64,000 nucleotides of DNA from Squalus acanthias. Its lineage: Eukaryota. Of this stretch, positions 23,701-63,731 are shown piece by piece. Under the pieces are notes generated by a model that ran no database searches, was not told where the DNA came from, and saw only the letters and a list, made by a program, of their open reading frames with translations. Both the position numbers and the translations under genes were made by a program. Where the stretch lies: contig CM059427.1 in NCBI GenBank assembly GCA_030390025.1, positions 158,782,001 through 158,846,000 of the forward strand, given 5' to 3'. Each line of letters starts with the position of its first letter. The first letter of the stretch is position 1.

Positions 23701-26700
23701 TATTTTATGCTGCACCCTTATGACTGCAGCAGAAAGAGAATACAATTAGCCTAGAGTGGATTCAAAGCCAGTTCTTGCTGGTTAAATGGGTAGTATTTTG
23801 TTTTGTATTTACATATTTAAAGGTAATTTATATTCTCCCATTCCCAATGCCATGCACAATTATAAACTGAAAGGACAAGTGAGTGACCTGCTGCTAGGCC
23901 TCCGCCAACATCACCAACTTATAGGGAATGCATGAAAGCAACACGGTGGCATAGTGGTTAGCACTGTTGCCTCACAGCGCCAGGGACCCGGGTTCGAATC
24001 CAGCCTCGGGTGACTGTCTGTGTGGAGTTTGCACATTCTCCCCGTGTCTACGTGGGTTTTCTCCGGGTGCTCCGGTTTCCTCCCACAGTCCAAAGATGTG
24101 CGGGTTAGGTTGATTTGGCTATGATAAATTGACCCTTAGTGTTAGGGGGGATTAAATACGTGGGGTTACGGGGATAGGGTGGGATATGTGTCGGTGCAGG
24201 CTCGATGGGCCGAAATGGCCTCTATCTGCACTGTCGGGATTCTGTGATTCTGTGATTCAAAGCCACCTAGGTCAATTCTCTATCAGATTTCATTGTTTTT
24301 TTCCTCTGTTGGGAAATGCTTGGCTTTCCCCTAATACCAGCTGAAATCAGGAGCTTGTAATCCAAGTAATCACTGATATAAACCAACAGCATGCCATTCT
24401 ATGGCGCAGTGTGTTGGAGTTCTGATCTTTTTCTTTAGGAAAACACTAAAGGTGGTATTTTTTTAAATATCTGAATGATACTTACATTCACATTTTTGCT
24501 GCTGTTTGATTTCAGGAAAAGGGGTCGTTCTCACAGTCCTTCTTCTAAAAGAGCACGATCCCCCAGCAATAAGAGAAAGGCTCAAGATAAATCAAAAAAT
24601 TCTAAAGAAACAGACCATGAAAATACACAGATGGGCTCTCCTTCAATGGAGAAGGACACAGATCCGAAACAGATGGAAGGAGAGAATGTTGCAAAAATGA
24701 AGTCACAGGATGGCCCCTCCTCAGACAGTGAGAACTACGAGGAACTTGGTGGAGCAGAAGACTTACTGTTGACGTATGATGAATCAGTGAAGGATAAGTC
24801 TGAACTTGGTGACAGAGAGGGCAATATGGAGGTGGAATTGGAAGCAGAAATGGAAGTTGGGCACTTCAACGAATATGAAACTAGGGAGGAGTCTGATGAT
24901 GCAGAACCAAGCTCTCAAATCGCAGCACAATTGTCTGAGAAGGTAGGCATTAAAAGTTCAAAAGTTGGAGACTTGCACATAGTTCATTCAAAGATGCCTC
25001 CGTCAACTTTTACTTAGAAAGTGTTAAACTCTATGATTTTTAATTCATTATCCTGTGAAGGAATATAGGAAAGGGTAAAACTGGTGTGGTTTGGGGATTC
25101 ATGCCTTTTCAGCAGTGTTCATACCCTTTTTACTTAGCTGTTATCACTCCTTTTGAATTCTTGCATTTCAGAGTATCCGTCTACTCTCCCATCCCTTTTA
25201 CATGTACTACTTCGTCCTTCTGCAACTGGAGAGTCTAGGATGAGTTGCTGCTCCTAAGCTTCTGCTCGGCAGCACAAAACTATGGCTGAGGGCACACCCA
25301 ACATTTTTCATGCAACCTTCATATATATATGTGTGTATGTATATATATATATATATATGTTGAATATTGCCATCATCTCCTGGGGGGAGTGAACATATAA
25401 GGTGGCTGTCCCTTTAAGAAATTCATACTCTATGTGGTCGTGATCTTGTAGCATACTTAACTTGCCAACCTTGTATACCCAGCAAATTTCTTTCTCATTT
25501 CCTCTTAGATGTGGGCCATGGATGAGACAGTGCTCTGTGACCTCCATTCATACTGTTCTGGTGCTGTTCTTTATTGCAGGGTGGCTCCCAATTCCAAAAA
25601 AGTCACCCATTCTCTGTAGTTCCTCCAAAGTTACGTCACTAAATGGGGCAGTTCGCTTTCCTGTCTGCTTGCAAGAATTTTTTCTATCAGATATAGAAAA
25701 GCTGTATGTGTGACCAGCCTTCTGAGAGCTTCTTACACTGGATAATCTGGCACCATGGTGCTCCCAACATGTGCGCTGGGAGTTCTGATGATTTATTATA
25801 GTGAGTTGACTATGCATTATAGCATATGGTCAGCAGCGAGCAAGGTACAATATCTACAGAGAAACAGTTCCACAGCTACTGAGCTGAGACTGCATTATGC
25901 ATCCCTTTGTATCTAGCCACTGTGGTCTAGCCTTTTGCAGTCAACTATACCTCAGCCATCAGGCAGTGCCAGCTCACCTGATGAAGTTTGCTTTGATTTT
26001 ATGAGTCCTTCTCAGTAACTGACTCATATCACATCCAGTTTTACATTTTCACCTAACTTTTCAAAGATATGAACCCTATTTAAAATTTAACCAGCGGCTC
26101 AGTTCTCTATCTGCCTCACCTCTTTATTTGACCTCTTCACCTTCTGGGTTCTTGTGATCAATCGTGTTGATGCTGGGGCTAATGCCTTCTGACTTACCAG
26201 TTTATCTCCAAACTAAAATAAATGAATAAAGCTAATCGATGTTACAGAAGTCACCACTGCTTTATGATTTCTTGTAACAGAAAGCAGATAGCTTTTTTTT
26301 TATTCATTCATGGGATATGGGCATCGCTGGCAAGGCCAGCATTTATTGCCCATACCTAGTTGCCCTTGAGAAGGTGGTGGTGAGCCGCATTCTTGAACCG
26401 CGTGAGGGTACTCCCACAGTGCTGTTAGGGAGGGAGTTCCAGGATTTTGACCCAGTGACGATGAAGGGACAGCGATACATTTCCAAGTCAGGAATGGTGT
26501 GTGACTTGGAGGGGAACTTGGAGGTGGTGGTGTTCCCATGCGCCTGCTGCCCTTGTCCTTCTAGGTGGTGGAGGTGCTGCCAAAGAAGCCTTGGCGAGTT
26601 GCTGCTCTGCATCTTGTAGATGCTACACACTGCAGCCACGATATGCAGGTGGTGGAGGGAGTGAATGTTTAAGGTGATCAGTGGGGTGCCAATCAAGCAG

Positions 26701-29700
26701 GCTGCTTTGTCCTGGATGGTGTCGAGCTTCTTGAGTGTTGTTGGAGCTGCACTCATCCAGGCAAGTGGAGAGTATTCCATCACACTCTTACTTGTGCCTT
26801 GTAGATGGTGAAAAGGCTTTGGGGAGTCAGGAGGTGAGACACTTGCCGCAGAATACCTAGCCTCTGACCTGTTCTTGTTGCCACAGTATTTATGTGGCCG
26901 GTCCAGTTAAGTTTCTGGTCAATGGTGACCCCCCCCCCCAGGATGTTGATGGTAGGGGATTCGGCGATGGTAATGCCGTTGAATGTCAAGGCTGTGGTTA
27001 GACTCTCGCTTGTTGGAGATAGTCATTGCCTGGCACTTGTGTGGCGCGAATGTTACAAGCCTGAATGTCATCCTTGTCTTGTTGCTTGCGGGCATAGACT
27101 GCTTCATTATCTGAGGAGTTGCAAATGGCACTAAACACTGTGCAGTCATCAGCGAACATCCCCATTTCTGACCTTATGTTGGAGGGAAGGTCATTGATGA
27201 AGCAGCTGAAGATGGTTGGTCCTAGGACACTGCCCTGAGGAACTCCTGCAGTGATATCCTGGGGTTGAGATGATTGACCTCCAACCACCACAACCATCTT
27301 CCTTTGTGGTAGGTATGACTCTAGCCAGTGGAGAGTTTTCCCCCTGATTCCCATTGACTTCAGTTTTACTAGGGCTCCTTGATGTCACACTCTGTCAAAT
27401 GCTGCCTTGATGTCAAGGGCAGTCACTCTCACCTCACCTCTGGAATTCAGCTCCTTTTTCCATGTTTGGGCCAAGGCTGTAATGAGGTTTGGAGCCGAGT
27501 GGTCATCAGTTAGCAGGTTATTGATGAGTAAGTGCCGCTTGATAGCACTGTCGACGACACCTTCCATCGACTGATGGGGCGATAATTGGCCGGATTGGTT
27601 TTGTCCTGCTTTTTGTGGACAGGACATACCTGGGCATATTTCCACATTGTCGGATAGATGCCAGTGTTGTAGCTGTACTGGAACAGCTTGGCTAGAAGCG
27701 CGGCTAGTTCTGGTGCACAAGTCTTCAGCACGACAGCCGGGATGTTGTCGGGGCCCATAGCCTTTGCTGTATCCAGTGCGCTCAGCCGTTTCTTGATATC
27801 ACGTGGAGTGAAAATTGGCTGAAGACTGGCTTCTGTGATGGTGGGGACCTCAGGAGGAGGCCAATATGGATCATCCACTCGGCACTTATGGCTGAAGATG
27901 GTTGCAAACGCTTCAGCTTTGTCTTTTGTACTCATGTGCTGGGCTCCACCATCATTGAGGATGGGGTTATTCATGGAGCCTCCTCCTTCCGTTAGTTGTT
28001 TAATGGTCCACCACCATTCACGACTGGATGTGGCAGGACTGCAGAGCTTTGATCTGACCCGTTGATTGTGGGATAGCTTAGCCCTGTCTATAGCATGCTT
28101 TTTAGCATGCATGTAGTCCTGTGTTGCAGCTTCCCCAGGTTGGTACCTCATTTTTAGGTATGGCTGGTGCTGCTCCTGGCATGCTCTTCTGCACTCCTTA
28201 TTGAACCAGGGTTGGTTCCCTGGCTTGATGGTAATGGTAGAGTGAGGGATATGCCGGGCCATGAGGTTACAGATTATGGTGGAATACAATTCTGCTGCTG
28301 CTGATATCCCACAGCACCTCATGGATGCCCAGTTTTGAGCTGCTAGATCTGTTCTGAATCTGTCCCATTTAGCAGAGTGGTAGTGCCACACAACATGATG
28401 GAGGGTGTCTTCATTGTGAAGACGGAACTTCGTCTCCACAATGACTGCGGTGGTCACTGCTACCAATGCTGTCATGGACAGATGCATCTGCGACAGGTAG
28501 ATTGGTGAGGACGAGGTCAAGTAGGTTTTTCCTTCGTGTTGGTTCTCTCACCACCTGTCGCAGGCCCAGACTGGCAGCTATGTCCTTCAGGACTCGGCCA
28601 GCTCGGTCAGTAGTGGTGCTAAAGTCCCCCACCCAGAGTACATTCTGTGCCCTTCCTACTCTCAGTGCTTCTTCCAAGTGGTGTTCAACATGGAGGAGTA
28701 CTGATTCATCAGCTGAGGGAGGACGGTAGGTGGTAATCAGCAGGAGTTTTCCTTGCCCATGCTTGACCTGAAGCCATGAGACTTCAGCTGTTTCAATTAT
28801 TACGTTTATGCTTGGGAAAGGAGGAAGGAAGAAGAGAGGGAAAGTGTGGTTGCATTTGGGGGAAGGCCAGTAAAAATGTTGTTTAAAAAAAAACGAGTCC
28901 CACATAAGTCTTGTGATGACTATGTGAGAGCATCCCTTTTGCGAGTCAGTACTTGGAACTGAGGTCCTCAACTATATTCCAGATAGATAGGAAACTTGGA
29001 GTCCAATTTAGCATAGAAGCTCCCCTCTACTCCCAGATCATAAGATAAAAGAACTTTTGTGGTGTAGAATTCTTAGGAATACTCCTGTACGATACATCAG
29101 TTGAGCCCCATTGGCTTGTATAGCCAAACAGAAAACATGGGGATCTCCGGGTTTCATAATCTACTCCAGTATTCTTGACAAAACCTTTGTGTTTGGCCAT
29201 TAGTCCAGTGCTGCTTGATGGCCTTTCCAGTTGAGTGATGAGCATAACTGTTGCTGACTTGTCCTTGGACCATTTCAATGCTTGTTGGTGCAGACTTTAG
29301 CACTATCGGAAGAAATTGCCTCAGCTCGAGCATTGATCCAGATCAACTCCAATACCAAGTTCAAATTACCTTTTATATACCCTTCACCCTCTATAGAAAC
29401 ATCCCTTCTTTCCAGCTGTTTTCTCTAAACTTTTTTGAGTTCTTGCTTCACTGTATGAATTAGATTTTTGCTCATTTACTTCCTTTCAGAATGGCTGAAA
29501 TTATATGTAGTGACGGTTTGGAGACAATTGCATCTTTACAGAGCTCCTTTGGGTCATCAAACTCAAAAAGGGCAATGCCCCAGTGTTTCCCACTGCCCAC
29601 CGGTGTTGAGGTTCATGTGGGGCATAACCAGCAGCACAGACCTATAATGTAAATTCTATGTAACACCCCCATCTGAATGACATGAATGAAGGCGATCGTG

Positions 29701-37299: not shown

Positions 37300-37620
37300 G
37301 CTTGGCTCTGTTTTCTCTCTGCTGAGTAGAAGTATGTGAATTCAAGTCTCACTGCAGAATTTGAGCATGTAATCTAGGCTAACATTTCAGTGTAGTACTA
37401 AGGGAGTGCTGCATTGTTGGAGTTGCCATCTTTCAGAGGAGACATTACACCGAGGCTCGTCCACCTATTCAGGTGGATTAATGGCATTATGCAAAAGAGC
37501 ACGGCGTTCTCCTGGAGTCCTGGCCATCATTCTCCCCTTAACCAACATTACCAAAAACAGATTATTTGGTTATTTAAGGGGTACCTGTGTCGGATGTCAG
37601 CCACAACCCCAGTCTGCCCA
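37300..37620 (+). mobile_element. Diverged Deu-domain SINE (SacSINE1-like)
   Basis: Aligns by eye to the younger copy at 39352-39760. Confidence 0.65.
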
Positions 37621-39140
37621 CTTTGAGTGGATGAAATACTTGGCTGGTAAATACTAGTACTGCAAATTAGAAATTACATAATTGTAGGATGCTAATTATA
37701 GAAAATTAAGGAGCAACAGAAGGGGATATATAAATATAAACCCATCCATCCATGTAAAGATTCAGGTATCAACTAGCTACTTGAGCTTTTTAAATAGTGT
37801 GGGATAGAGATTGCGCTTTGGGCGCGATCGACAATCTGGGTGCAAATTGCCCTGGTTTTCCAAAGTGAAGTTATGGTTCAAGTTTCTGCCCAAACTCATT
37901 TGCATAATCACAAACTTAAAATCTTCCATGAACCAGTGCAATTGGGCAGTGCAATACAATGCAATTGTTTTCCTTTCCTTGCATTAAAAAATATTCCTTG
38001 ATGTATTTAAGAGTGGTAACCGATGCAGTTTTATTAACACAGCTGAAAATGGGTTTATCACAACACATAACCATTTTTACTAAGTGTCTAGTCCACCAAC
38101 TGTGAGTAACCTGATTTTAAATCACAATGACTTTAAAAAACTATACTGAATCATTTACTAATGTCATTGGTGTACACTAACTAGTCAGTTTCTTAGCAAA
38201 TTAAATATTTTTTGATATGGGCCTACTAGAGCCTTTGCACCCAAAAAAAACTAGCTTAATTTGAAGATCCCAGGATAACATATAGGATTAGAGTCATAAC
38301 GGCACAGAAGGAGGCCATTCGGCCCATCGATTCCATGCCGGCTCTCTGCAGAGCAATCCAGTCACCCCCATTCCCCCGCTCTATCCCCATAGCCCTGTAA
38401 GTTTATTTCCCTCAAGTGCCTATCCAGTCTCCCCTTGAAAACATTGAATGTCTCCGCTTCCACCACGTCCGTCGGCAGCGAATTCCATGTCGTCATCACT
38501 CGCTGTGTAAAAAAGTTTTTCCTCACGTCCCCCCTGTATCTCTTGCCCAAAACCTTACATCTGTGTCCCCTAGTCCTTGTGCCATCATCTAGTGGGAGCA
38601 GCCTTTCCCCGTCTAGCCTATCCAAACCCGTCATAATCTTGTACACCTCTATCAAATCACCCCTCAACCTCCTTTGTTCTAATGAAAACAAATCCAGCTT
38701 CTCCAAGCTGTCCTTGTAGCTAAGATCCCCCATCCCGGGAACCATTCTGGTAAATCTCCTCTGCACCCTCTCAAGGGCCTTCACATCCTTCCTAAAGTGT
38801 GGTGACCAGAACTGGACGCAATACTCCAGTTGTGGCCTAACCAGCGCTTTATAAAGATTCCGCATAACTTCTCTACTTTTGTACTCAATACCTCTATTTA
38901 TGAAGCCCAAGATCCCATATGCTTTGTTAACCACTCTCAATATGTCCTGCCACCTTCAGGGACCTATGCACATTAACTCCCAAGTCCCTATGTCCCTGCA
39001 CACTCTTTAAAACTGTGCCATTAAGTGTATATTGCCTTTCCCTGTTCCTTCTGCCAAAATGCATCACCTCACAGTTCTCTATTAAATTCCATCTGCCCAT
39101 TCTGCTAGCCTTTCTATGTCCTGTTGCAGTCGATTGATAT

Positions 39141-39351
39141 AGATCATAGAGTTACACAGCACAGAAAGAGGCCCATCGTGTCCACGCCGGCCATCAAGCC
39201 CTTTCTATTCTAATCCCATTTTCCAGCACTTGGTCCGTAGCCTTGTATGCTATGGCGTTTCAAGTGCTCATCTAAATGCTTCTTGAATGTTGTGAGGGTT
39301 CCTGCCTCTACCACCCTTTCAGGCAGTGAGTTCCAGATTCCAACCACCCTC
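39141..39351 (-). mobile_element. CR1 family B 3' end (terminus of the composite insertion)
   Basis: Near-identical to ~40065-40281 (QRVVGIWNSLPERVVEAG...GKWD + 3' UTR). Confidence 0.88.
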
Positions 39352-39760
39352 TGGGAGTGCCGCACTGTCGGAGGGGCGGTACTGAGGGAGCGCCGCACTG
39401 TCTGAGGGGCGGTACTGAGGGAGCGCCGCACTGTCGGAGGGGCCGTCTTTCGGATGTGATGTTAAACCCGACGCCCCCATCTGCCCTCTCGGGTGGATGT
39501 AAAAGATCCCACGGCCACTATTGGAAGAAGAGCAGGGGGGGAGTTCTCCCCGGTGTCCTGGGCCCAATATTTATCCCTCAACCAACATCCCTAAAAACAT
39601 GATCTGGTCATTTATCACATTGCTGTTTGTGGGAGCTTGCTGTGCGCAAACTGGCTGCCGCGTTTCCCACATTACAACAGTGACCACACGTCAAAAGTAC
39701 TTCTTTGGCTGTGAAGCGCTTTGGGACGTCCTGAGGTGGTGAAAGGCACTGGAGAAATGT
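39352..39760 (+). mobile_element. Deu-domain SINE (SacSINE1-like) with a 33-bp tandem head repeat
   Basis: GCCGTCTTTCGGATG Deu core and L2-like tail; 2.7 copies of GGAGCGCCGCACTGTCGGAGGGGCGGTACTGAG. Confidence 0.8.
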
Positions 39761-39849
39761 GACGTTCTCTCTCATTGTGTCCCTTTCAAATTGAGGGCCC
39801 ACCCTGGGCTGCTTGGACTGGGAGACGCCATTGAGCGGCTGGATTGGCG

Positions 39850-39916
39850 ATGCCCCTCCCCCTGGCACTACAAGCCCGCCTGGCCAAGCGAGGGATTCTC
39901 AAGCACGTGGAGCCAG
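39850..39916 (+). pseudogene. PQBP1: Orphan first coding exon of polyglutamine-binding protein 1
   Basis: MPLPLALQARLAKRGILKHVEP followed by G|GTAAAC donor, matching the PQBP1 N-terminus; no further PQBP1 exons recognised in the next 24 kb; lies inside a TSD-bounded insertion. Confidence 0.85.
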
Positions 39917-40061
39917 GTAAACGACATCGCCGCAACCCCCCCCCCCCTTGCCCGGCCTCCTCCCGGTTAAAACCAAGCCCCCGGGCTGCCGGCGATGATC
40001 TCAGGGGGCGCTTTGGTTCCCCATCGCTTTCCCTCGTTTATGTGAGGTGGGGGGGAACTCG

Positions 40062-42464
40062 AGTCATCGAGTTATACAACACAGAAAGAGGCCCTTCGGC
40101 CCATCGTGTCCGCGCCGGCCATCAAGCCCTGTCTATTCTAATCCCATTTTCCAGCACTTGGTCCATAGCCTTGTATGCTATGGCGTTTCAAGTGTTCATC
40201 TAAATGCTTCTTGAATGTTGTGAGGGTTCCTGCCTCTACCACCCTTTCAGGCAGTGAGTTCCAGATTCCAACCACCCTCTGGGTGAAAAAGCTTTTCCTC
40301 AAATCCCCTCTAAACCTCCTGCTCCTTACCTTGAAACTATGCCCCCTGGTTATTGACCCTTCTACTAAGGGGAAAAGTTCCTTTCTATCTATGCCCCTCA
40401 TAATTTTGTACACCTCAATCAGGTCCCCCCTCAGCCTTCTCTGCTCTAAGGAAAACAACCCCAGCCTGTCCAGTCTCTCTTCATAGCTGAAGCGCTCCAG
40501 CCCAGGTAACATCCTGGTGAATCTCCTCTGCACCCTCTCCAATGCAATCACATCCTTCCTGTAGTGTGGCGACCAGAACTGCACACAGTATTCCAGCTGT
40601 GGCCTAACTAGCGTTTTGTACAGCTCCATCATAACCTCCCTGCTCTTATATTCTATGCCTCGGCTAATGAAGGCAGGTATCCCATATGCCTTTTTAACCA
40701 CCTTATCTACCTGTCCTGCTGCCTTCAGGGATCTATGTACATGCACACCAAGGTCCCTCTGATCCTCTGTCCTTCCAAGGGTCCTACTATTCATTGTGTA
40801 TTCCCTTGCCTTGTTAGTCCTCCCAAAATGCATCACCTCACACTTTTCAGGGTTAAATTCCATTTGCCACTGTTCTGCCCATCTAACCAACCCGTCTATA
40901 TCGTCCTGTAGCCTGAGGCTTCCCTCCTCGCTATTTACCACCCCACCAATTTTTGTGTCATCTGCGAACTTACTGATCATACCTCCTACATTCATATCTA
41001 AATCATTAATGTACACTACAAACAGCAAAGGACCCAGCACCGATCCCTGCGGTACACCACTGGACACAGGCTTCCAGTCACAAAAACAACCTTCGACTAT
41101 CACCCTCTGCCTCCTGCCACTAAGCCAACTTTGGATCCAATGTGCCAAGTTGCCCTGGATCCCATGGGTTCTTACCTTCTTGACCAGTCTCCCATGCGGG
41201 ACTTTGTCAAAAGCCTTACTGAAGTCCATGTAGACCACATCAACTGCACTACCCTCATCCACACACCTAGTCACCCCCTCGAAAAATTCAATCAAATTGG
41301 TCAGACATGATCTCCCCCTGACAAAGCCATGCTGACTATCCTTGATTAATCCTTGCCTCTCCAAGTGGAGACTAATTCTGTCCCTCAGAATTTTTTCCAA
41401 TAATTTCCCTATCACTAATGTTAGGCTCACTGGCCTGTAATTCCCTGGTTTATCCCTACTACCCTTCTTGAATAATGGTACTACATTAGCTGTTCTCCAG
41501 TCCTGTGGCCAGAGAGATTCTGAAAATTTGTGTCAGAGCCCCTGCAATCTCCTCCCTTGCCTTACATAGCAGCCTGGGATACATCTCCTCTGGGCCTGGG
41601 GATTTATCCACTTTTAAGCCCACTAAAACCGCTAGTACCTCCTCCCTCTCAATACTAATTTGTTCAAGTATATCACAATCCCCCTGCCTGATTTCTATGC
41701 CTACATCTTCCTTCTCCATAGTGAACACAGATGCAAAATACTCATTTAAAACCACACCTACATCTTCTGGCTCTACACACAGATTACCACTTTGGTTCCT
41801 AATGGGCCCTACTCTTTCCCTGGTTATCCTCTTGCCCTTAATATACTTATAAAACACCTTGGGATTTTCCTTTATTTTGCCCGCCAGTGTTATTTCATGC
41901 CCCCTCTTTGCTCTCCTAATTTCTTTTTTAAGTACCCTCCCCCCCTCCACTTTCTATACTCCTCTGGAGCTTCCACTGTTTTTAGTACTTTGTATCTGCC
42001 AAAAGCCTCCCTTTTTTTCTTAATCCATTCTCGTATATCCCTTGACATCCAGGGTTCCCTGGGCTTGTTGGTCCCACCCTTGACCTTTACAGGAACATGT
42101 TGCCGTTGTACTCTCTCTATTTCCTTTCTGAAAGACTCCCACTGCTCTGATGTGGATTTTCCTATAAGTAGCTGATCCCAGTCCACTTTGGCCAGATCCT
42201 GCCTTATCATATTAAAATTATCCTTCCCCCAATTTAGAACCTTTATTTCCGGTCCATCTTTGTCCTTTTCCATGACTACCTTAAATCTCACCGAATTATG
42301 GTCACTGTCACCAAAATGCTCTCCTACTAACACTTCTACCACTTGCCCGGCTACATTCCCTAGAATTAGGTCCAGTACCGCCCCCTCTCTTGTAGGACTT
42401 TCTACATGCTGGCTCAAAAAGCTCTCCTGGATGCACTTTAAGAATTCCGCACCCTCTAAGCCTT
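40062..42464 (-). mobile_element. CR1 family B, 5'-truncated, RT largely intact
   Basis: 430-aa ORF 40138-41430 ([23 protein letters not shown]) plus upstream frameshifted ORFs. Confidence 0.95.
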
Positions 42465-42791
42465 ATATCATCATCACTGTTTGCCACACCCCCAAGTTTG
42501 GTGTCATCGGCAAATTTAGAAATTCTACTCTGTATTCCAACATCCAGGTCATTTATATATATCAAAAAAAGCAGTGGCCCCAGCACTGACCCTTGGGGAA
42601 CACCACTGTCTACCATCCTCCAGTCTGAAAACCAGCCATTTACCACAACTCACTGTTTTCTATCCTTAAGCCAATTCCTTATCCAAGCTGTCACTGACCC
42701 ACCTATTCCATGAGCCTCAATTTTGTTAACCAGCCTTCTATGTGGTATTTTGTCAAACGCCTTCCGAAAATCCATGTAGACAACATCCATT

Positions 42792-44455
42792 ACATAGGAT
42801 ATACGGCACAGAAACAGGCCATTTGGCCCAACCAGTCCATACCGGCGTTTATGCTCCACACGAGCCTCCTCCCGTCTTTCCTCATCTAAATCTATTCTCT
42901 TCTCCCTCATATGCTTGTCTAGCCTCCCCTTAAATGCATCTATACTATTCGCTTCAACCACTCCCTGTGGTAGTGAGTTCCACATTCTCACCACTTTTTG
43001 GGTTTCTTCTGAATTCCCTATTGGATTTCTTGGTGACTATCTTATATTGATGGCCTCTAGTTATGCTCTTCCACAGAAGTGGAAACATTCTCTCTATCCA
43101 CCCTATCAAAATTTTTCATAATTTTAAAGACCTCTATTAGGTCACCCCTCAGCCTTCTATTTTCAAGAGAAAAGAGACCCAGCCTGCTCATCCTTTCCTG
43201 ATATGTATACCCTCGCATTTCAGGTATCCTCCTTGTAAATCTTCTCTGCACCCTCTCCAGTGCCTCTATATCCTTTTTATAATATGGTGACCAGAACTGT
43301 ACACAGTACTCTCTAAGTGTAGTCTAACCAAGGTTTGATACAGGTTTAGCATAACTTCCCTACTTTTCAATTCTATCCCTCTAGAAATAAACCCCAGTGC
43401 TTGGTTTGCTTTTTTTTATGGCCTTGCTAACCTGTGTTGCAACTTTTAGTGATTTGTGTATTTGTACCCCAAGATCCCTTTGTTCCTCTACCCCACATAG
43501 ATTCACACCCTCCAAGGAATAAGTGACCTCCCTATCCTTCTTACCAAAATTTAATACCTCACATTTATCTGTGTTGAACTTCATTTGCCAATTATATGCC
43601 CATTCTGCAAGTTTATTAATGTCCTCCTGTAATTTGTTGCAGTCCTCCTCAGTATTGACTATGCCCCCCCAGTTTGGTGTCATCCGCAAATTTAGAAATT
43701 GTGTTTTTGATTCCAAAGTCTAAATCGTTAATGTAAATTGTGAACAGCAGTGGTCCCAGCACTGATGCATGTGGAACACCACTACCCACCTTCTGCCACT
43801 GAATAGCTACCCTTTACTCCTACTCTCTGCTTTCTGTCCTGAAGCCAGCTAGCAATCCATTCTGCTACTTGTCCCCTGACTCCGCATTCTCTGACCTTGT
43901 TCATCAGTCTATTATAGGGTACCTCATCGAAGGCCTTTTGAAAATCCAGATAAATTACATCTACTGCATTACCATTGTCTACTCTTTCTGTTAGCTCTTC
44001 AAAAAATTCAATGAGGTTGGTCAAGCAAAACTTTCCCTTTTGAAATCCATGCTGACTATTCATTATTATATTTTTGGTTTCTAGATGTTCTTCTATTTTC
44101 TCCTTTAATAGGGATTCCATTATTTTTCCTACCACCGACATTAAGCTGACTGGTCTATAATTCCCTGGACATGTTCTATCCCCCTTCTTAAATATCGGTA
44201 TTACATTAGTTATCCGCCAGTCCTCTGGCACTACACCTTTTTCTAATGAATTATTAAATATGTGTAGTAATGCCTCTGCTATCTCTTCCCTAGATTCTTT
44301 TAAAATGCGTGGATGCAATCCATCTGGACCAGGGGTTTTATCCTCTTTGAGTTTGATTATTTAATATATCCCCTTTTTTATTTTAAATGTACTTATCTCA
44401 TTACTAATCTCATCATCCAATGTCATGTCCGCCTGTTCTATCTCGCTGGTAAATA
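42792..44455 (-). mobile_element. CR1 family C, decayed RT fragment
   Basis: ORFs 43057-44318 with RT motifs. Confidence 0.9.
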
Positions 44456-44606
44456 TTGAGACATAATTTGTAGGATGAAGGGGAAATCCCCTTCCTATAA
44501 GTGGCTGATATTCCAGCCATGCCCAGAAATAGCTCAGGGACTGGACATTCCCACGAACACATCAGGCCTAGAAAGTCCATAAGAATTGACAGAAATGATG
44601 AAATCT

Positions 44607-46965
44607 ACATAAGAAATACAAGCAGGAGTAGGCCATACGGCCCCTTGAGCCTGCTCCATCATTCAATAAGATCATGGCTGAACTTCTACATCAACTCAAA
44701 AATCTTCTACTGGCACATAAACAGTAAGCGGGTAGTAAGAAGTGGGGTGGGGCCTATTAGGGACAAAGAAGGTGATATATGCTTAGAGGCGCAGGGCAAG
44801 GCTCGAATAGTCAATGAGTACTTTGTATCGATATTTACTAAGGAGGTGGATGCTGAAAATATCGATAGAAGTGGAAAAGGTAGAAGCAATGGAAGGGATG
44901 GAAATTGATAGACAGAATGTAATAGAAAGGCTGGGTATGCTTAGAGTGGATAAGTCGCCTGGTCCAGATGGCTTGCATCCCAGATTGCTAAGGGAATTGG
45001 GGGAGGAGATAGCGGAAGGGCTTGCCATAATTTTCCAATCTTCTCTAGATGCGGGCGAGGTGCCTGAGGATTGGAAAGTGGCAAATGTGACACCATTGTT
45101 CAAGAAAGGGTATAAGGACAAACCTAGTAACTACAGGCCAGTCAGTTTAACATCAGTGGTGGGTAAAGTTTTAGAAACAATAATCAAGGAAAAAATTAAC
45201 GGGTACTTGGAGAGGTTCAAGCTAATTCAGGAGAGCCAACACGGATTTGTAAAAGGCAGATCGTGTTTGACTAATTTAATTGAATTTTTTGATGAAGTAA
45301 CGGAGGATTGATGAAGGGAATACAATGGATGTTGTCTACATGGATTTTCGGAAGGCGTTTGACAAAGTACCACATAGAAGGCTGGTTAACAAAATAGAGA
45401 CTCATGGAATAGGTGGGTCAATGGCAGCTTGGATAAGGAATTGGCTTCACGACAGAAAACAGCGAGTTGTGGTAAATAGCTATTTTTCAGACTGGAGGAT
45501 GGTAGACAGTGGTGTTCCCCAAGGGTCAGTGCTGGGGCCACTGCTTTTTTTGATATATATATATAAATGACCTGGATATTGGAATACAGAGTAGAATTTC
45601 TAAATTTGCCGGTGACACGAAACTTGGGGGTGTGGCAAACAGTGAGGATGACACCAATCGACTGCAACAGGACATAGAAAGGCTAGCAGAATCGGCAGAC
45701 AAGTGGCAGATGGAATTTAATACAGAGAAGTGTGAGGAGATGCATTTTGGCAGAAGGAACAGGGAGAGGCAATATACACTTAATGGCACAGTTTTGAAGA
45801 CTGTGCAGGGACAGAGGGACCTGGGAGTTAATGTGCATAGGTCCCTGAAGGTGGTGGGACATATTGAGAGAGAGGTTAACAAAGCATATGGGATCTTGGG
45901 CTTCATAAATAGAGGTATTGAGTACAATAGTAGAGAAGTTATGCTGAACCTTTATAAAGCGCTGGTTAGGCCACAACTGGAGTATTGCGTCCAGTTCTGG
46001 TCACCACACTTTAGGAAGGATGTGAAGGCCCTTGAGAAGGTGCAGAGGAGATTTACCAGAATGGTTCCGGGGATGGGGGATCTTAGCTACAAGGACAGCT
46101 TGGAGAAGCTGGATTGTTTTCATTAGAGCAAAGAGGTTGCAGGGTGATTTGATAGAGGTGTACAAGATTATGATGGGTTTGGATAGGCTAGATGGGGAAA
46201 GGCTGTTCCCACTAGTTGATGGTACAAGGACTAGGGGACACAGATTTAAGGTTTTGGGCAAGAGATACAGGGGGGATGTGAGGAAAAACTTTTTTACGCA
46301 GCGAGTGGTGAGGACCTGGAACTCGCTGCCGACAGAAGTGGTGAAAGCGGAGACACTCAATGTTTTCAAGGGGAGACTGGATAGGCACTTGAGGGAAATA
46401 AACTTGCAGGGCTACAGGGATAGAGCAGGGGAATGGGACTGACTGGATTGCTCTACAGAGAGCCGGCACGGACTTGATGGGCCGAATGGCCTCCTTCTGT
46501 GCCAATATGACTATATGACTATAACTCCACTTTCCTGCCCTATCCCTTGATTCCTTTAGTGCCCAAGAACCTATCGACCTTCGTCTTGAATACACTCATC
46601 AACTGAGCATTCACAACCCTCTAGGGTAGAGAATTAAGATTCACAACACTCTGAGTGAAGAAATTTCTCCTCATCTCAGTCCTAAATGGCCGACCCCTTA
46701 TCCTGAGATTATAACCCCTAGTTCTGGACTCTCCAGCCAGGGGAAACAGCCTCCCAGCATTACTCTGTCGAGCTCTCTGTAAATGTTATACGTTTCAATG
46801 AGATCACTTCTCTTCTTCTAAACTTCAGAGAATATAGGCCCATTCTACTCAATCTCTCCTCATAGGACAATCTTCTCATCCCAGGAATCAACCTGGTGAA
46901 CCTTCGTTACACGTCCTCTAAGTCAAGTATATCCTTCCTTAGGTAAGGGGACCAAAACTGTACAC
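44607..46965 (-). mobile_element. CR1 3' fragment D, split (44607-44697 and 46523-46965) by element E
   Basis: 3' UTR resumes after duplicated AACTC. Confidence 0.8.
44698..46522 (+). mobile_element. CR1 element E (family A), 5'-truncated, TSD AACTC
   Basis: RT ORFs 44814-46442, (ATGACTAT)n tail, AACTC at 44693-44697 and 46523-46527. Confidence 0.92.
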
Positions 46966-52553: not shown

Positions 52554-53675
52554 GATGGATTGATTACTACGTCTGGTTCCCTTCTACCATTTGAGTCATA
52601 GCCGTCTGTTCCCAAAACCACTCAGAGCGTGGAGCAGGTCCAGTTGATTAAATTGACATAAGAAAACTACTAAGCACTTGGTCTAAGTATTAAACAAAGC
52701 TTTAATCAACTGTTTTTCAACATGGAGATCTAGTTGTGTCCTTCACTAGTTCCTGTTGAGGAATGTCCTAAGCAAGCTGGGCCCATGCCAGTGTATTTAT
52801 ACGCTCCCTGGACAGCGCCACCAGCAGGCCACCCAGTATTACTTCATACAAGATTCATGTCACTCAGTGCATCATCCGTCTCCAAAACAATCATTCAAAG
52901 TGAACTGACTACTGATAGCTACTAGCCTCGGTCCCCTGTACCTAATGGCTCCTGTGCAAACACACATTGAAATGAGAAAACTAATCCTTGGTCAGTATTC
53001 ATTACTCCTCGTAAAAAAAGATGGTTTATTGTGAACAGAACAGACACCAGCAAGCAGTGGGCAATATTTCTTATCCCTCAAACACCGACTCTGCATTGTG
53101 CACTAACAGGCACTAGAATCTGATTGTTTCCAACAATCAGAGGCTGTACATCACCAGCTACTCCCAATTGCTTCCCAGGCCGAGCTCTCTGTTGGAAATA
53201 ATATCCCACAGCCCCTAATGAATCCTCCAGATTTTCACTTGTCTTATCTGAAAAATCACACTCTAGTAATTGGAGCTCTGTTTGGATTCACTATTCCCTG
53301 TAGTTTTCAGCAATTCACCAACCATCTCTTTGTTGTACAATAACTGTGCAGAAGCAGACAATGAAAACTGAAACAAACAAGGGATTCAAGGATCAAGGCA
53401 AACAGACTGTGGTTCATATTTACAATGAGCTGGCTGATTAGAGACCTGGATGGAGGGAGGGGATAAGATATCAACATAGAATTACATAGAATTTACAGCA
53501 CAGAAACAGGCCATTCGCTGATTATCTTTAACATAATGAAAGATTCAAAGAAATCCAAACTTATCCAAGTACAGCGTGTTAGCCCATCAATGCCTGTCTA
53601 TGTACTTCACAGTAATGTGAGCGGCAAAGGCGGGTATATGGAGTTAGGTCACAGATCAGCCATGATCTCATTGAA

Positions 53676-54487
53676 TAAGAACATAAGAAATAGGAGCAGG
53701 AGTAGGCCATTCAGCCCCTTGAGCCTGCTCCGCCATTCAATAAGATCATGGCTGATCTGATCTTGGCCTCAACTCCACTTTTCTGCCTGTTCCCCACAAC
53801 CCTTGACTAGTAGTTCAAAAATCTGTTTATCTCCACCTTGAATATATTCAATGACCCAGCCTCCACAGCTCTCTGGGGTAGAGAATTCCAAAGATTCACG
53901 ACCCTCTAAGAGAAGAAATTCCTCCTCGTCGCCATCTTAAATGGGCAACCCCTTATTCTGAAACTATGATCCCTAGTTCTAGATTCCCCCACGAGGGGAA
54001 ACATCCTCTCAGCATCTACCCTGTCAAGCCCCTTCAGAATCTTATATGTTTCAATAAGATCCCCTCTCATTCTTCTAAACTCCAATGAGTATCGGCCCAG
54101 CCTGCTCAACCTTTCCTCATAAGACAACCCCTTCATCCCAGGAATCAACCTAGTGAACCTTCTCTGAGCTGCCTCCAATGCAAGTATATCCCTCTTTAAA
54201 TAAGGAGACCAAAACTGTACACAGTACCATAGGTGTGGTCTCACCAAAGCCCTGTACAGTTGTAGCAAGACTTCCCTACTTTTATACTCCATCCCCCTTG
54301 CAATAAAGGCCAACATTCCATTTGCCTTCCTAATTACCTGCTGTGCCTGCATGCTAACTTTTTGTGTTTCATGTACGAGGACACCCAGATCCCTCTGTAC
54401 CGCAGCATTCTGTAGTTGCTCTCCATTTAAATAATATTTTGCTTTTCTATTCTTCCTACCAAAGTGGATAACCTCACATTTTCCCAT
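53676..54487 (-). mobile_element. CR1 3' fragment nested in an older + strand CR1 3' UTR
   Basis: ORF 53906-54487; host 3' UTR continues either side. Confidence 0.88.
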
Positions 54488-56762: not shown

Positions 56763-58135
56763 TACACACACACCCCCCACACACACCCACCCCACCCACA
56801 CACCCCCCTCCACCCACACACACCCACACCCCCCACCCACACACACACCCTCCACCCACACACACACCCCCCCACNNNNNNNNNNNNNNNNNNNNNNNNN
56901 NNNNNNNNNNNNNNNNNNNNNNNNNNNNNNNNNNNNNNNNNNNNNNNNNNNNNNNNNNNNNNNNNNNNNNNNNNNNNNNNNNNNNNNNNNNNNNNNNNNN
57001 NNNNNNNNNNNNNNNNNNNNACACCCCCCCACCCACACACACCCACCCCCCCACCCACACACCCCCCCACCCACACCCACCCCCCCATCCACACCCCCCC
57101 CACCCACCCACACCCACCCCCCCACACCCACCCCCACCCACACAAACACCCCCCCCACACACACCCCCCACCCACACAAACACCCCCCACACACACCCCC
57201 ACCCCCACCCACACCCCCACCCACACACACACACCCCCACCCACACAACCTCACCCCCACTCACCCACACACACACCCCTACCCACACACACCCCCACCC
57301 CCACACTCACCCCCCCACCCACACACAAACACCCCCCACACACACACCCACCCACACACCCCCACCCCCCACACACACAAACTCCCCCCACCCACACACC
57401 CCCACCCCCACCCACACACACACACACCCACCCCCCACCCACACCCCCCACCCACACCCACCCCCCCACCCACACACACACCCACCCACTACCCACACAC
57501 ACACCACACACACACACCACCCCCCCCACCCACACACACCTAGCCCCCACCCACATACCATCCCCCCACCCACACAGCCCACCTCACACGCACCCGCCCC
57601 ACACCCACACTCACCCACCCCCCACCCAGACACACCCAGCCCCACCCACACACACACAGCCCCCACCCACACACAAAGCCCCCCCACCCACACACACCTA
57701 GCCCCCACCCACACAGCACACTTCACACAGCCAATCACATACCCACACACCCACTCACACACTCACACCCACTCCACCCACCACCCCACCCACACACACA
57801 CCCCACTGACACACTCCACCCACACCCACACACACCTCACCGACACACACCCACACACACACCCCACGGACACACACACCCGACTGACACACACACCCCA
57901 CCTATACACACACCCCACTGACACACACACCCCACCCACACACACACCCCACTAACACACACACCCCACTCACACACACACCCCACCCACTCACACACCC
58001 CACTGACACACACACCCCACCCACACACACACCCCACCCACACACACACCCCACTGACACACACACCCCACCCAGGCACACACCCCCACCTACACACACA
58101 CCCCACTCACACACACACACCACATCCAAACACAC
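56763..58135. repeat. C/A-rich (G/T-rich on - strand) low-complexity tandem array containing a 145-N assembly gap (56876-57020)
   Basis: CACACCCCC/CACCCACA repeats seen directly. Confidence 0.97.
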
Positions 58136-58152
58136 ACTAATGTAGATCTTAC

Positions 58153-58470
58153 CCAGATCCTTACTGACAGCTCTCCGAGTCGGCTGATCCAGGGACACGT
58201 GTTTCACTTCACACCAGTAAGTGCGGTTACTCTCCCACACTGCTGTCGGCACAGTGAGCTGGCTCACAGTCCGGTAGGTGCCGTTACTGCCCAAAACCAT
58301 TGCACACTGTGTCACTCCCATATCCACCGGACCAGTCTCATCTCTCCAAGTCACAGAAATATCAACAGGGTAAAAGTCTGACACCAAACAAGTCATTGCA
58401 ACAGTTTGCCCTGCAGGGTCAGTGTCAAGTAAAGGAGAGAAAAGATGGACCACAGGCTGGATGTAACCGT
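58153..58470 (-). CDS. Ig C1-set domain exon 2 (intact)
   Basis: QPVVHLFSP...MTCLVSDFYPVDISVTW...NGTYRTVSQLTVP..VWESNRTYWCEVKHVSL; AG/GT, phase 1-1. Confidence 0.92.
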
Positions 58471-58639
58471 CTACAGCACAGACAGGAACATATCATTAGA
58501 TAAGAGATCAAACAAATATTTACAGCTTTATCACATGCATTAGAGCAAATGTATTTACAGCATGTTAACTGAAGGCAGAGAGCAGTGAGTATCCTGGTAA
58601 AACAGCACCAATAATTTTGTAATAAAGCAGAATGAAGGG

Positions 58640-58775: not shown

Positions 58776-60046
58776 GATCAATTAGACGTTAAGACCTCTC
58801 GAAACAGAACATGGTTACGGTTAACATTAGGGCTCATTCTGGTACAACCTGAATACTCCAGCAGCAAGTAAAACACTCAATGGTTCATAAACCATTATAG
58901 CAGACACAGTACAAAGGCGACACAAGCTAATACCGCACCTTATGTTGTGCCTGATAAATAGACTTTGCAGCTATTTAACTAATTAATAAATATTAATAAA
59001 TAAAAATGATAAGCTAAGAGCACAAGGTAGAATGGAGGGAGATAAGGCCTTTCAGCCCATTCTGTTCCTACCAGGTACAACTGACACTGTCACTGACTCT
59101 TCCTAATCTATATGAACTGGTGAGGAAGGTGACTTCCAGGAAGAGAAACTGTCAACTTTCCTCCTGCTCCTGCCTCCCAGAAGATAGAATCATAGAATCA
59201 TAGAGTAAATTGAGTATAAACTCCGAGACATTGATCTAATATTAAAATCTACCTCACTTGAAGTCAATGTATTCGTGGTTGAAATTGCTATGATCCTGAT
59301 AGCCCATCATCCAGTGTTTGGCACAGAATACCTTCCTCTTTTGTCAACACTTAACTGACCAATCTCTATCACAACAAATAATCCTCCAAAAGCTTCCTAA
59401 CTTTGTTAACAAGTACATCTGATAGAAATCTATTTCATAGGAATGTTACTCCATTTTGTAAAATAATAGGAGAATCCACCTTTTATAACTGCCCTGAATA
59501 AAGGCCTATGACCGACTCCACTAGTTCAAGGCAACTGAGTAACTAAATAAAAGGCTTAAGTCTTTTTTACTAACTTTGTTGTTAATAAAGATGACTTCTC
59601 AGAAAAGGGTTTAAAACAGAAAAATAGTCCATTAGCAATTTGTATCCATATTGCTCCACTGTTTATTTACTGCTACGTCTTCACCAATGTTAGTAAAGAG
59701 ATGAATTTATCCCCCATAGGGACAAGAAGGGTTGTAACTGGACAGAGAGGTAAGAGGATTGTTCATTTGCTTTTTCTCCTAGCTTGGAGTTTACAAGTTC
59801 AAGAAAGGTGCTCAGAGTCTCCTCAGATATGGGAATGATATTCCATCCTTGACTAGACTTCGGCCTTTTAGAAAGTGAAGACATGTTAAGGGGTAAATAA
59901 GTGTTTGGCAGGAAAGAGGAAACTGAACTCTTTGGACGAAGTTTTGTCACAATCTGAAAGCAAGATTTTGTGCGTAATTTTAAAACATTTAATTTTAATT
60001 AGGATATATGCAGTAAATAAAAACAAGCACACTGCAGTGTTCTTAC

Positions 60047-60358
60047 CATTTCTTTTCCTCAAACTGTGCCTCATAGGAGATGACAACGTAACATGTTGAA
60101 TTTCACAAGTGTACACAGAGCCAGAGTCCCACTCCCCGACAGCAACTTCACTCACTTCTGGAACTGTAGCTCCATTTGTCTTTAGAACCGGTAGAAGGGT
60201 TTGTGAACTAGAGGCTGACTGATTGTTATTAACCAGCCACCTAAAGGAAATGCTTTCAGGATAAAATCCAACAGCCAGACACACAACTGTTGCTGTCTTC
60301 TTCACATCAATCTCTTCAAAGGTTGTTGGCAAAACATAGATCGATGGTGGAATCGGGT
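60047..60358 (-). CDS. Ig C1-set domain exon 1
   Basis: PPSIYVLP...TATVVCLAVGFYPESISFRW...EWDSGSVYTCEIQHVTL; AG/GT, phase 1-1. Confidence 0.9.
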
Positions 60359-60629
60359 CTAAATGAATAGAGACGGTTATTGCTCAGAATGGTATTGTAC
60401 AGATAATGAGGTGTTTGAACTCAGATAATGGCCAAGAAAGAACTTGCATTTATATGTATAGTGTATTAATCAGGAATGGATCTAGAGATTGTAGTACAGT
60501 GCTTAGCTGCAGCAAAGGTAAGCAAATGGAGTACTGGGTAGCAGATGAAAAGAGGTTGTATTCAAAGACTGCATGGATGAACTACAGAATTTGTTCATCC
60601 CAGTGTGGCATAAGAATAAAACAAAATAG

Positions 60630-62685: not shown

Positions 62686-63301
62686 TATTATTGCTGTATA
62701 AGGCATTGGTTAGATCCAATCTGGAGCATGGTGCACAGTTTGGCTCTTGAAAAGGTACAGTGGTATGAACAATAAAGATGATTTCAGATATCAGGAATTT
62801 ATGATACAAGGTTAAGGAAGTTTGGCTTATTTTCTTTGAAGAAAGACTTCAGGTGACCTCTTTGAAGCTTGAGATTCCGAAGGGACTTGACAAAGCTGAT
62901 CCAGCAAACTGTTCACTGGGGTGCAGGTTCACATACCAGTAGACATAAGTTACAAATCAGGACATTAGGAGTAAAAAGGGAAGTCAGACAAAACTTTTTC
63001 ACTCAAAAGGGTAATGGACTGTAAATTCAGTAAGTTACATGGGAAGGTCATTAAAACGTTTAGCGAGGAGTGATCACATTGTAAGGTGCCGATGGTGAAG
63101 AGGAAACAGATCGACCTCTGCTGACATTTATGACATTTCTCCTCAGCAATTAGATTCCCTCTTGGCTATTTGTACAAAATCGAAACACACTGGTTATATT
63201 TACAATTTCACTACAAATAGTGCACAAGGAAAATATTTCCCTCGGTGTGTGTTAAATATTTGAGATCAGTTATTGTTTCCTTCTGATGAATCCCCACTTA
63301 C

Positions 63302-63646
63302 ATGGTTTTACTTTCAGGGTAGTTCCACATCCGCACCAGTCAGTCTCTTGCTGAAATAATATCTGGTTGTATCCTCCTGTTTCAAGTTGCCAACTTTTAA
63401 AGCAAATTTTCTCCTTTGTTCTGGAAAATTGGGTTGCGATTCCTGACATACGACTAAAGGATGCAGATCCCGGGCTCCAGGACATGAGCCATTTGATTCT
63501 AGAGGTTCCAGGCGGTACATAACCCCACCTTATTAGGCGATCATCTTCATTTCTGCTGGTTAGACATTCCAGTCTCACCGATTGTCCTACTTGACTAATC
63601 ACAGTTGACTGAGTCATTCTCAGATAGGCGTTAGTCAGCACTGGAT
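63302..63646 (-). CDS. VJ-type Ig variable domain exon, light-chain-like
   Basis: RMTQS...VRLEC...IRW...GIATQFS; shifted frame FALKVGNLKQEDTTRYY; back in frame QQETDWCGCGTTLKVKP; T|GTAAGT donor. Confidence 0.85.
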
Positions 63647-63731
63647 CTGAAAAGAAAGGGAGACATAAATGTTCAAGTGAACGCAGATAGGGACAACGAG
63701 GAGAAAAAAAAGTGGGAGATTGGCTTCTTAC

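What the first reader, a model, noticed from the sequence alone, without database searches (positions are those of the whole stretch)
39137..42468. Apparent CR1 3' transduction of a PQBP1 exon inside a TSD-bounded composite insertion
Seen: CR1 element A is interrupted in mid-RT and ATAT is duplicated at 39137-39140 and 42465-42468; excising 39141-42464 restores NSDDDINRLQQ. Read on the minus strand, the insert is a 5'-truncated CR1-B with its 3' end (42464-40062), then GC-rich host DNA holding the PQBP1 first coding exon with its donor and intronic flanks, a Deu-SINE, and a second near-identical CR1-B 3' end with tail (39351-39141). Established: CR1/L2-type RTs recognise their own 3' end, and 3' transduction is mainly known for polyA-dependent L1. 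Inference: a CR1 in a PQBP1 intron read through to a downstream CR1 3' end, which supplied the recognition signal, so paired CR1 ends can mobilise host exons.
Basis: partly seen in the sequence, partly recalled or inferred. Interest (0 to 1): 0.75.

Follow-up and report, generated by a model that had tools for sequence, protein, structure and literature searches.

The report
Shark CR1 insertion carrying PQBP1 exon
In a shark genome, a 3.3-kb retrotransposon insertion carries a stray, probably non-functional copy of the first coding exon of the housekeeping gene PQBP1 between two ends of a CR1 element, a retrotransposon family thought rarely to move host sequence, though the route by which it was picked up is still open.

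Summary
The structure is real. A CR1 LINE (A) is split in its reverse-transcriptase region by a 3,324-bp insert bounded by a 4-bp duplication. A sister copy 3 kb away spans the empty site without an indel. The insert is a 2.4-kb 5'-truncated CR1-B, 0.7 kb of unspliced host DNA, and a second 215-nt CR1-B 3' end. The host piece encodes PQBP1 residues 1-22 (22/22 identical to shark, ray and coelacanth proteins) with a phase-1 donor. No other PQBP1 exon lies in the 64 kb, so this is a displaced copy.

Corrections: one duplicated 4-mer must also be removed to restore A. The exon and SINE are antisense to CR1-B. The upstream flank may be promoter, not intron. The downstream CR1 end has lost its recognition hairpin through an 8-nt deletion.

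One CR1 reverse-transcription event most likely made the insert (about 0.75). Read-through between two CR1 ends at the PQBP1 locus is the best single route (0.35). One or two template jumps are together as likely, and DNA recombination or a misjoin are not excluded. The source locus and reads could not be checked. New variant of known LINE cargo capture; cargo probably dead.

The parts
38281..39140 (-). Host CR1-A, 3' part (rest of RT, C-terminal region, 3' hairpin and tail)
   Evidence: 92% to sister 45655-46523; ORF 38362-38955; hairpin motif present
39137..39140 (.). Target-site duplication, copy at the insert's 3' end (its first two bases on the CR1 strand can also be read as tail, i.e. 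priming microhomology)
39141..39355 (-). CR1-B' : 215-nt 5'-truncated CR1-B 3' end with tail; 8-nt deletion removes the inner hairpin
   Evidence: 200/206 identical to B plus an 8-nt gap; motif absent and inner hairpin not in the centroid fold
39353..39772 (+). Headless SINE (resembles shark SacSINE1/Deu type from recall; not tested), starting inside 2.8 copies of a 33-bp unit; 3-nt microhomology with B' at 39353-39355; 3' end approximate
   Evidence: tandem array 39353-39443; 66% relative at 37395-37576; junction
39773..39849 (+). Unique GC-rich host DNA upstream of the PQBP1 ATG (promoter/5' UTR or intron end)
   Evidence: no other copy in the window; three AGs, all GAG; 39801-40000 is 67% GC, CpG o/e 0.64
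39850..39916 (+). PQBP1 first coding exon, residues 1-22 plus first base of codon 23
   Evidence: 22/22 identical to Narcine, Mobula, Rhincodon and Latimeria PQBP1; tblastn E about 6e-9; residue 23 is Glu in these, matching the terminal G
39917..40061 (+). Splice donor and about 145 nt of unspliced PQBP1 intron
   Evidence: GT at 39917; homology to PQBP1 stops here
40062..42464 (-). CR1-B, 5'-truncated, 2.4 kb, intact 3' hairpin and tail (tail boundary uncertain by a few nt, about 40057-40064)
   Evidence: RVT_1 E 1.1e-34; hits; 3 private changes at 203 conserved positions, the lowest of 6 copies examined
42465..42468 (.). Target-site duplication, copy at the insert's 5' end
42465..42791 (-). 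Host CR1-A, 5' part (5'-truncated, abutting the tail of an older CR1-C)
   Evidence: 94% to sister 45324-45651; junction with C tail
44698..46527 (+). Sister copy CR1-A' (outside the finding): spans the empty site, and is itself a plain insertion with a 5-bp duplication

Best explanation
One target-primed reverse-transcription event by the CR1-B machinery wrote the whole 3.3-kb insert into CR1-A. The template was most likely one RNA from the native PQBP1 locus. A CR1-B lying antisense about 145 nt into the intron after the first coding exon was transcribed through its own 3' end, back across the exon and upstream DNA, through part of a SINE, and into a short second CR1-B 3' end. The RT primed on that second tail, copied 3.3 kb, stopped inside CR1-B and left a 4-bp duplication. 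The hairpin deletion in the second end arose during or after copying. SHOWN: interruption, duplication, order and orientation of parts, exon identity, absence of the rest of the gene in 64 kb, youth of B. INFERRED: a single event, the RNA intermediate, the arrangement at the source, the timing of the deletion. The cargo is an orphan 22-codon exon with no splice partner seen and is probably non-functional. The wider claim that CR1 reverse transcription carried the exon (this route or either template-jump rival) stands at about 0.75.
For: The 4-bp duplication encloses all parts and is confirmed against a sister empty site. This length matches a 5-bp control in the window and the 3-5 bp reported for L2 and CR1 clades (PMC4245944, passages). 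All four junctions are LINE-like: tail to target, 5' truncation with 3-nt microhomology at the SINE, tail to intron, and 5' truncation at the duplication. Both CR1-B pieces point the same way, and the cargo is unspliced and antisense, which contiguous read-through explains with no template switch. No AATAAA/ATTAAA lies on the CR1 strand from 40283 to 39141 (weak, short GC-rich stretch). None of the 6 B/B' substitutions changes an amino acid (2 synonymous, 4 in the 3' UTR; P 0.014-0.043 under neutral drift, post hoc), which leans to two separate CR1-B templates. B has fewer private changes than its host A (3/203 vs 4/139).
Against: No source locus was seen; the collections hold no shark genome DNA. 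The model needs two young same-subfamily CR1s within 0.7 kb around the first exon of a housekeeping gene, while no other copy above 90% identity to this 3' end exists in the 64 kb. The end supposed to be recognised lacks the hairpin today. The B/B' distance (6 substitutions) lies within the range expected if both were copied from one template at insertion time (3.3, 95% range 0.7-9.7), so prior independent residence at a source is not required. Stringent-type LINEs are reported to capture other RNAs by template switching (PMC4476161, passages).
Confidence: 0.35

Rival explanations
1. Host-promoter RNA plus one template jump. Only the short B' end lay beside PQBP1. An antisense RNA starting in the GC-rich intron ran through exon and SINE into B', was reverse-transcribed in trans like a SINE (a 5' transduction), and at its 5' end the RT jumped to the 3' end of a CR1-B RNA.
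For: B joins the cargo exactly at its tail, as end-to-end jumps do. The cargo is CpG-rich and lacks a YAG acceptor, so it looks promoter-like. Only one resident CR1 piece is needed. CR1-tailed SINEs and template switching by CR1 RT are proposed in birds (PMC5729268, passages).
Against: Needs an antisense start site inside the intron (not testable here) and trans-mobilisation of a scarce RNA. The hairpin is missing from B'.
Confidence: 0.2
2. Double template switch (tripartite chimera). The RT started on a real CR1-B RNA, left it after 215 nt at a 3-nt microhomology, copied 0.7 kb of an antisense PQBP1-promoter RNA or exposed DNA strand, then jumped to the 3' end of a CR1-B RNA. The native locus never held either CR1.
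For: Needs no special source. B/B' divergence fits copying at the time of insertion. TSD-flanked tripartite LINE chimeras are described in Magnaporthe and mouse (PMC2104539, passages); U6 chimeras with L2 and RTE LINEs (PMC4476161); and two-RNA and DNA-templated L1 inserts in cells (PMC11702581, section 7).
Against: Two rare switches in one event. The cargo is antisense, unspliced and presumably scarce, unlike the abundant RNAs in the reported chimeras. The silent-only B/B' differences argue against re-use of one RNA molecule.
Confidence: 0.2
3. DNA-level capture. A plain CR1-B insertion in A came first and owns the duplication. Later, ectopic gene conversion or integration of a DNA circle, using CR1-B homology, copied in the stretch lying between two CR1-B pieces at the PQBP1 locus.
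For: The end product is formally a single B with an internal 215-nt direct repeat around the cargo, which homologous insertion would also give. The first 105 or so nt of that repeat are identical.
Against: Needs the same paired source as the best model plus an extra event. Only about 200 nt of 97% homology on one side. The identical stretch lies in coding sequence, where low divergence is expected.
Confidence: 0.12
4. Assembly misjoin through CR1-B repeats: 0.7 kb of the true PQBP1 locus was threaded into a plain CR1-B insertion.
For: Both cargo boundaries abut a young repeat family. The window has one 145-N gap at 56876-57020. No reads were available.
Against: Long young repeats, an LTR pair (200/212 identical) and about 1.1 kb of CA-rich repeat are assembled through, which suggests long-range data. 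B and B' differ at 6 sites and one indel, so they are not a collapsed copy.
Confidence: 0.07
5. This is the native PQBP1 exon, splicing to exons beyond the window.
For: Protein sequence and donor are intact.
Against: It sits inside one contiguous young CR1. No further PQBP1 exon lies in 24 kb downstream or 39.8 kb upstream. The downstream region holds a UrIg2-like gene on the other strand. Intactness over 22 codons is expected at about 1% divergence.
Confidence: 0.02

Closest known systems
L1 3' transduction (PMC5470649, passages)
   Same: LINE plus downstream host DNA inside one TSD; unspliced cargo that can hold exons.
   Different: CR1 clade with a 4-bp TSD; the cargo ends in a second LINE 3' end with a microsatellite tail, not in poly(A); the source locus is not shown.
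Tripartite LINE chimeras by double template switch (Magnaporthe WEIRD/Mg-SINE/MGL; mouse B2/U6/L1; PMC2104539, passages)
   Same: Three parts in one TSD; 3' part a 5'-truncated LINE; 5' part joined by its 3' end.
   Different: The middle part is antisense, unspliced gene DNA rather than an abundant RNA; both outer parts are the same LINE subfamily.
U6 chimeras with stringent LINEs (L2, RTE; one unresolved CR1 case in turkey; PMC4476161, passages)
   Same: A stringent LINE 3' end carries foreign sequence.
   Different: Cargo is a protein-coding exon with intron and flank, and a second LINE piece follows.
CR1-tailed SINEs TguSINE1/PittSINE (PMC5729268, passages)
   Same: Foreign sequence tagged with a CR1 3' end becomes mobile.
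   Different: No tRNA head or family of copies is shown; one copy seen in 64 kb.
LTR-mediated retroposition (PMC5131818, listing and start of abstract; described in PMC5470649, passages)
   Same: Host gene fragment between two direct repeats of a retroelement.
   Different: The repeats are LINE 3' ends with tails, and the cargo is unspliced and antisense.

Membership tests
CR1-clade LINE insertion | CR1-type reverse transcriptase ORF | tested here: met
   RVT_1 E 1.1e-34; named hits are bird, turtle and elasmobranch retroelement RTs at about 42-67% identity. The clade name CR1 is from my knowledge; the hits are not labelled CR1.
CR1-clade LINE insertion | Short (3-5 bp) target-site duplication | tested here: met
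   4 bp against a sister empty site; 5-bp control; range from PMC4245944
CR1-clade LINE insertion | 3' hairpin plus microsatellite at the priming end | tested here: inconclusive
   Present in B; hairpin deleted in B', tail present. Motif intact in 8 of 15 CR1 ends examined, so decay after insertion is common.
L1-type 3' transduction | One TSD encloses element and cargo | tested here: met
L1-type 3' transduction | Cargo ends at a downstream polyadenylation signal with a poly(A) tail | tested here: not met
   Ends in a CR1 3' end and microsatellite tail; no AATAAA/ATTAAA on that strand from 40283 to 39141
L1-type 3' transduction | Cargo is contiguous with the element at a source locus | not testable with these tools
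   No shark genome DNA in the collections
Tripartite template-switch chimera | TSD-flanked; 3' part a 5'-truncated LINE; 5' part joined at its 3' end | tested here: met
Tripartite template-switch chimera | All parts are sense copies of cellular RNAs | tested here: inconclusive
   Exon and SINE are antisense to the LINE parts; an antisense RNA is possible but untested
Tripartite template-switch chimera | Parts are not adjacent at any genomic source | not testable with these tools
   needs the native PQBP1 locus
Processed retrocopy (retrogene) | Spliced, sense copy of an mRNA with poly(A) | tested here: not met
   Donor and intron retained, antisense, one exon only
Deu-SINE (SacSINE1 type) | tRNA-derived head | tested here: not met
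   This copy starts within the 33-bp units at the B' junction, so the head is truncated away
Deu-SINE (SacSINE1 type) | Deu domain and L2-derived tail | not testable with these tools
   No consensus available (supplements of PMC5499810 not readable; no Rfam match at gathering scores); resemblance is recalled
LTR-mediated retroposition | Cargo flanked by LTRs of an LTR retroelement | tested here: not met
   The flanking repeats are LINE 3' ends with tails

The most novel reading that the evidence does not exclude
Two same-subfamily CR1 ends facing the same way act as a composite retroposon: everything between them, host exons included, is read through and moved as one unit. In its boldest form, the intact upstream hairpin recruits the RT in cis while priming occurs on a downstream tail that lacks a hairpin, so recognition and priming are uncoupled. 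In CR1-dense shark genomes this would be a recurring route of exon shuffling that bypasses CR1's strict 3'-end recognition, with dispersed copies sharing the cargo.
Probability: 0.28. Interest if true: 0.72.

Novelty: new variant of a known kind. Interest (0 to 1): 0.47.

Why it matters
CR1 is held to recognise only its own 3' end, which is offered as the reason CR1-dominated genomes such as birds have few retrocopies (PMC5470649, PMC8665684, passages). A CR1-type insertion holding a coding exon with its splice donor and GC-rich flank shows a way round that rule, whichever RNA route applies. The case is cheap to decide: two junctions at the native PQBP1 locus separate read-through from template jumping. 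A genome-wide count of same-subfamily CR1 end pairs around unique DNA within one TSD would show whether sharks shuffle exons this way. The cargo itself probably has no function, and this is one case.

Tried and rejected
(1) Other PQBP1 exons: 12 named proteins by tblastn and a profile over six frames found only 39850-39915 (profile E 1.6e-7; next 4.1; next tblastn E 0.052 at 27% identity inside the LTR element). A scan with 10 short recalled motifs gave one true hit and one chance hit. (2) Read-through ORF 39850-40200 as a protein: the only hit was coelacanth PQBP1 over the exon part; rejected. (3) Hairpin loss as disproof: rejected, since 7 of 15 ends lack the intact motif and A versus A' differ by 6 small indels in about 1.17 kb. 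Folding z-scores were weak: B -0.92, B' +0.72, A -1.82, A' -2.35. (4) Dating B against the B/B' distance was not decisive; unnamed and bacterial-labelled hits were left out, and 28 of the 120 listed proteins were used. (5) A permuted-circle source with a TSD around one B end: no duplication seen between the two cargo ends by eye. (6) Twin priming of a sense PQBP1 pre-mRNA: rejected, because both outer parts are CR1 in the same orientation. (7) Synteny of native PQBP1: the cluster look-up could not be made; 'PQBP1' is absent from the main text of PMC12227049 and from the supplements of it and PMC10751288. Unchecked. (8) Seven literature searches listed no report of CR1 3' transduction or CR1-borne exons. 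The library lacks most subscription papers, including Suh 2015, and bioRxiv supplements were closed. (9) Rfam: 0 matches in 64 kb.
Full report
Setting. The window is from a cartilaginous fish, judged from the protein matches. A matrin-3-like gene lies on + with exons from 5680 to 33769 (tblastn of an unnamed 958-aa relative; RRM in that relative; U1-type zinc finger in the window exon; the name is my recall). A UrIg2-like gene lies on minus: a VJ-type exon at 63273-63656 has UrIg2 as best solved match (E 2e-15), and two C1-set exons lie at about 59.9-60.4 and 57.9-58.5 kb; no further C exon was found. The finding lies between these genes in a nest of retroposons.

The interruption is real. ATAT stands at 39137-39140 and 42465-42468. 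The flanks 38281-39140 and 42465-42791 match consecutive parts of a sister element at 45324-46523 (92% and 94%; 48/845 and 16/323 substitutions). With one ATAT kept, the joined flanks align to the sister across the site with no indel. Chance agreement of two 4-mers is 0.45% here. The sister is itself a plain insertion in another CR1 with a 5-bp duplication overlapping its tail, and 3-5 bp is the range given for L2 and CR1 clades (PMC4245944, abstract and passages).

The insert. On the minus strand it is CR1-B (42464 to about 40062; 464-aa ORF with RVT_1; vertebrate retroelement RT hits), then 706 nt of other DNA, then a second CR1-B 3' end (B', 39355-39141). B and B' agree at 200 of 206 aligned bases and differ by an 8-nt deletion. 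No other copy of this end above 90% identity occurs in the window. The middle part reads on +: a headless SINE starting in 2.8 copies of a 33-bp unit (66% relative at 37395-37576; the Deu label is recall only), GC-rich unique DNA, ATG at 39850, 67 coding nt and a GT donor at 39917. The 22 residues are identical to 5 of 12 named PQBP1 proteins tested (Narcine, Mobula, Rhincodon, two Latimeria) and 20/22 to Callorhinchus. Residue 23 is Glu in these, matching the last exon base. All 12 proteins hit this one place only, and a profile finds nothing else (E 1.6e-7 versus 4.1). An ancient exon cannot have arisen inside one contiguous young CR1, so it is a displaced copy (inference). The three AGs between the approximate SINE end and the ATG are all GAG, and the one CAG among the 9 AGs scanned lies inside the SINE. 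The upstream flank may therefore be promoter rather than intron.

The recognition signal. The CR1 3' hairpin is hypothesised to be the RT recognition site (PMC8665684 and PMC5729268, passages), and stringent recognition is reviewed in PMC3747384 (passages). B keeps a GGCC-N4-GGCC hairpin. In B', the end at which priming must have occurred, the 8-nt deletion between two 5-nt repeats removes it. The motif is intact in only 8 of 15 CR1 ends examined, and small deletions are common here (6 indels between A and A'). Folding z-scores were modest for all four ends tested.

Age. At positions conserved in 28 named references, private changes number 3/203 in B, 4/139 in A, 12/181 in A', 20/197 in C, 8/203 and 7/90 in two others. 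B is the youngest, as the nesting requires. Scaled on A/A', one would expect 3.3 (0.7-9.7) substitutions between B and B' if both were copied from one template; 6 are seen. On the other side, none of the 6 is nonsynonymous (P 0.014-0.043; a post hoc test on few sites), which leans to two different active templates. The two tests pull in different directions, and neither decides.

Mechanism. All four junctions look like LINE junctions, and one short duplication encloses everything, so a single CR1 reverse-transcription event is the most economical reading (about 0.75, my judgement). Three RNA routes give the same product. Read-through from an antisense intronic CR1-B to a second end needs no switch, explains the unspliced antisense cargo, and meets no polyadenylation hexamer, but needs two young CR1s around a housekeeping first exon (0.35). 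A host antisense RNA ending in a resident B', followed by one jump, needs only one resident piece (0.2). A double switch needs none and has precedent in TSD-flanked tripartite chimeras (PMC2104539, passages), in U6 chimeras of L2 and RTE LINEs (PMC4476161, passages) and in L1 inserts in cells (PMC11702581, passages and section 7) (0.2). Because the product is also a single B with a 215-nt internal direct repeat, ectopic conversion or circle integration into an earlier plain insertion (0.12) and a misjoin (0.07; one 145-N gap at 56876-57020) stay open. The native-gene reading is very unlikely (0.02).

Comparison and novelty. It works like L1 3' transduction (PMC5470649, passages) but fails that family's poly(A) criterion, and the source-locus criterion is untestable here. 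It is not a processed retrocopy or an LTR-borne copy. Seven searches listed no CR1 transduction of host exons; the library lacks most subscription papers, and Suh 2015 was not held (seen only as cited). PMC5499810 (passages) describes SacSINE1 in sharks, but its supplements could not be read, which leaves the SINE label untested. Synteny of the native gene could not be looked up, and PQBP1 is not mentioned in PMC12227049 (passages and supplement search) or in the supplement of PMC10751288.

Verdict. A real, well-bounded CR1-type composite with a displaced PQBP1 exon; a new variant of known LINE cargo capture; route undecided; cargo probably dead. Interest 0.47. If paired CR1 ends prove to be a recurring read-through vehicle (probability 0.28), interest would be about 0.72.

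Noticed in passing
window 57905-58492, 59889-60383, 63273-63656 (minus): UrIg2-like non-rearranging antigen-receptor gene: VJ-type exon (best PDB match UrIg2, E 2e-15) and two C1-set exons; no further C exons found in the window although shark UrIg2 is described with up to nine. The V exon looks shortened against UrIg2 and may be degenerate.
   Followed up: partly
window 5680-33769 (+): Matrin-3-like gene (RRM exons, U1-type zinc-finger exon) ending about 5.4 kb before the insert, convergent with the UrIg2-like gene.
   Followed up: partly
window about 48.4-52.9 kb (minus): Ty3/gypsy-type LTR retroelement with protease, RT/RNase H and integrase domains in separate ORFs; LTR cores 200/212 identical; CpG-rich.
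   Followed up: no
window 38281-44460: Three-level nesting: CR1-A appears inserted in the tail repeats of older CR1-C, and the composite inserted in A; private-change counts agree with this order.
   Followed up: yes
window 44698-46527 (+): Sister CR1-A' is inserted in another CR1 with a 5-bp duplication and forms an inverted pair with A, 2.5 kb apart at the closest arms.
   Followed up: yes
window 60630-62585 (+): CR1 with a 651-aa open frame without stops.
   Followed up: no
window 56764-58137: CA-rich low-complexity tract of about 1.3 kb holding the only N gap (145 nt, 56876-57020).
   Followed up: no
window 53470-53760 (minus): A very short CR1 3' end (about 50 nt, starting inside the hairpin motif) lies about 170 nt downstream of another CR1 3' end in the same orientation; different subfamilies, no TSD test done.
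   Followed up: no
window 1164-2090, 3723-4187, 15857-17922, 26293-28971: Several copies of a second LINE family (84-94% alike) inside the matrin-like gene's introns; clade not determined.
   Followed up: no
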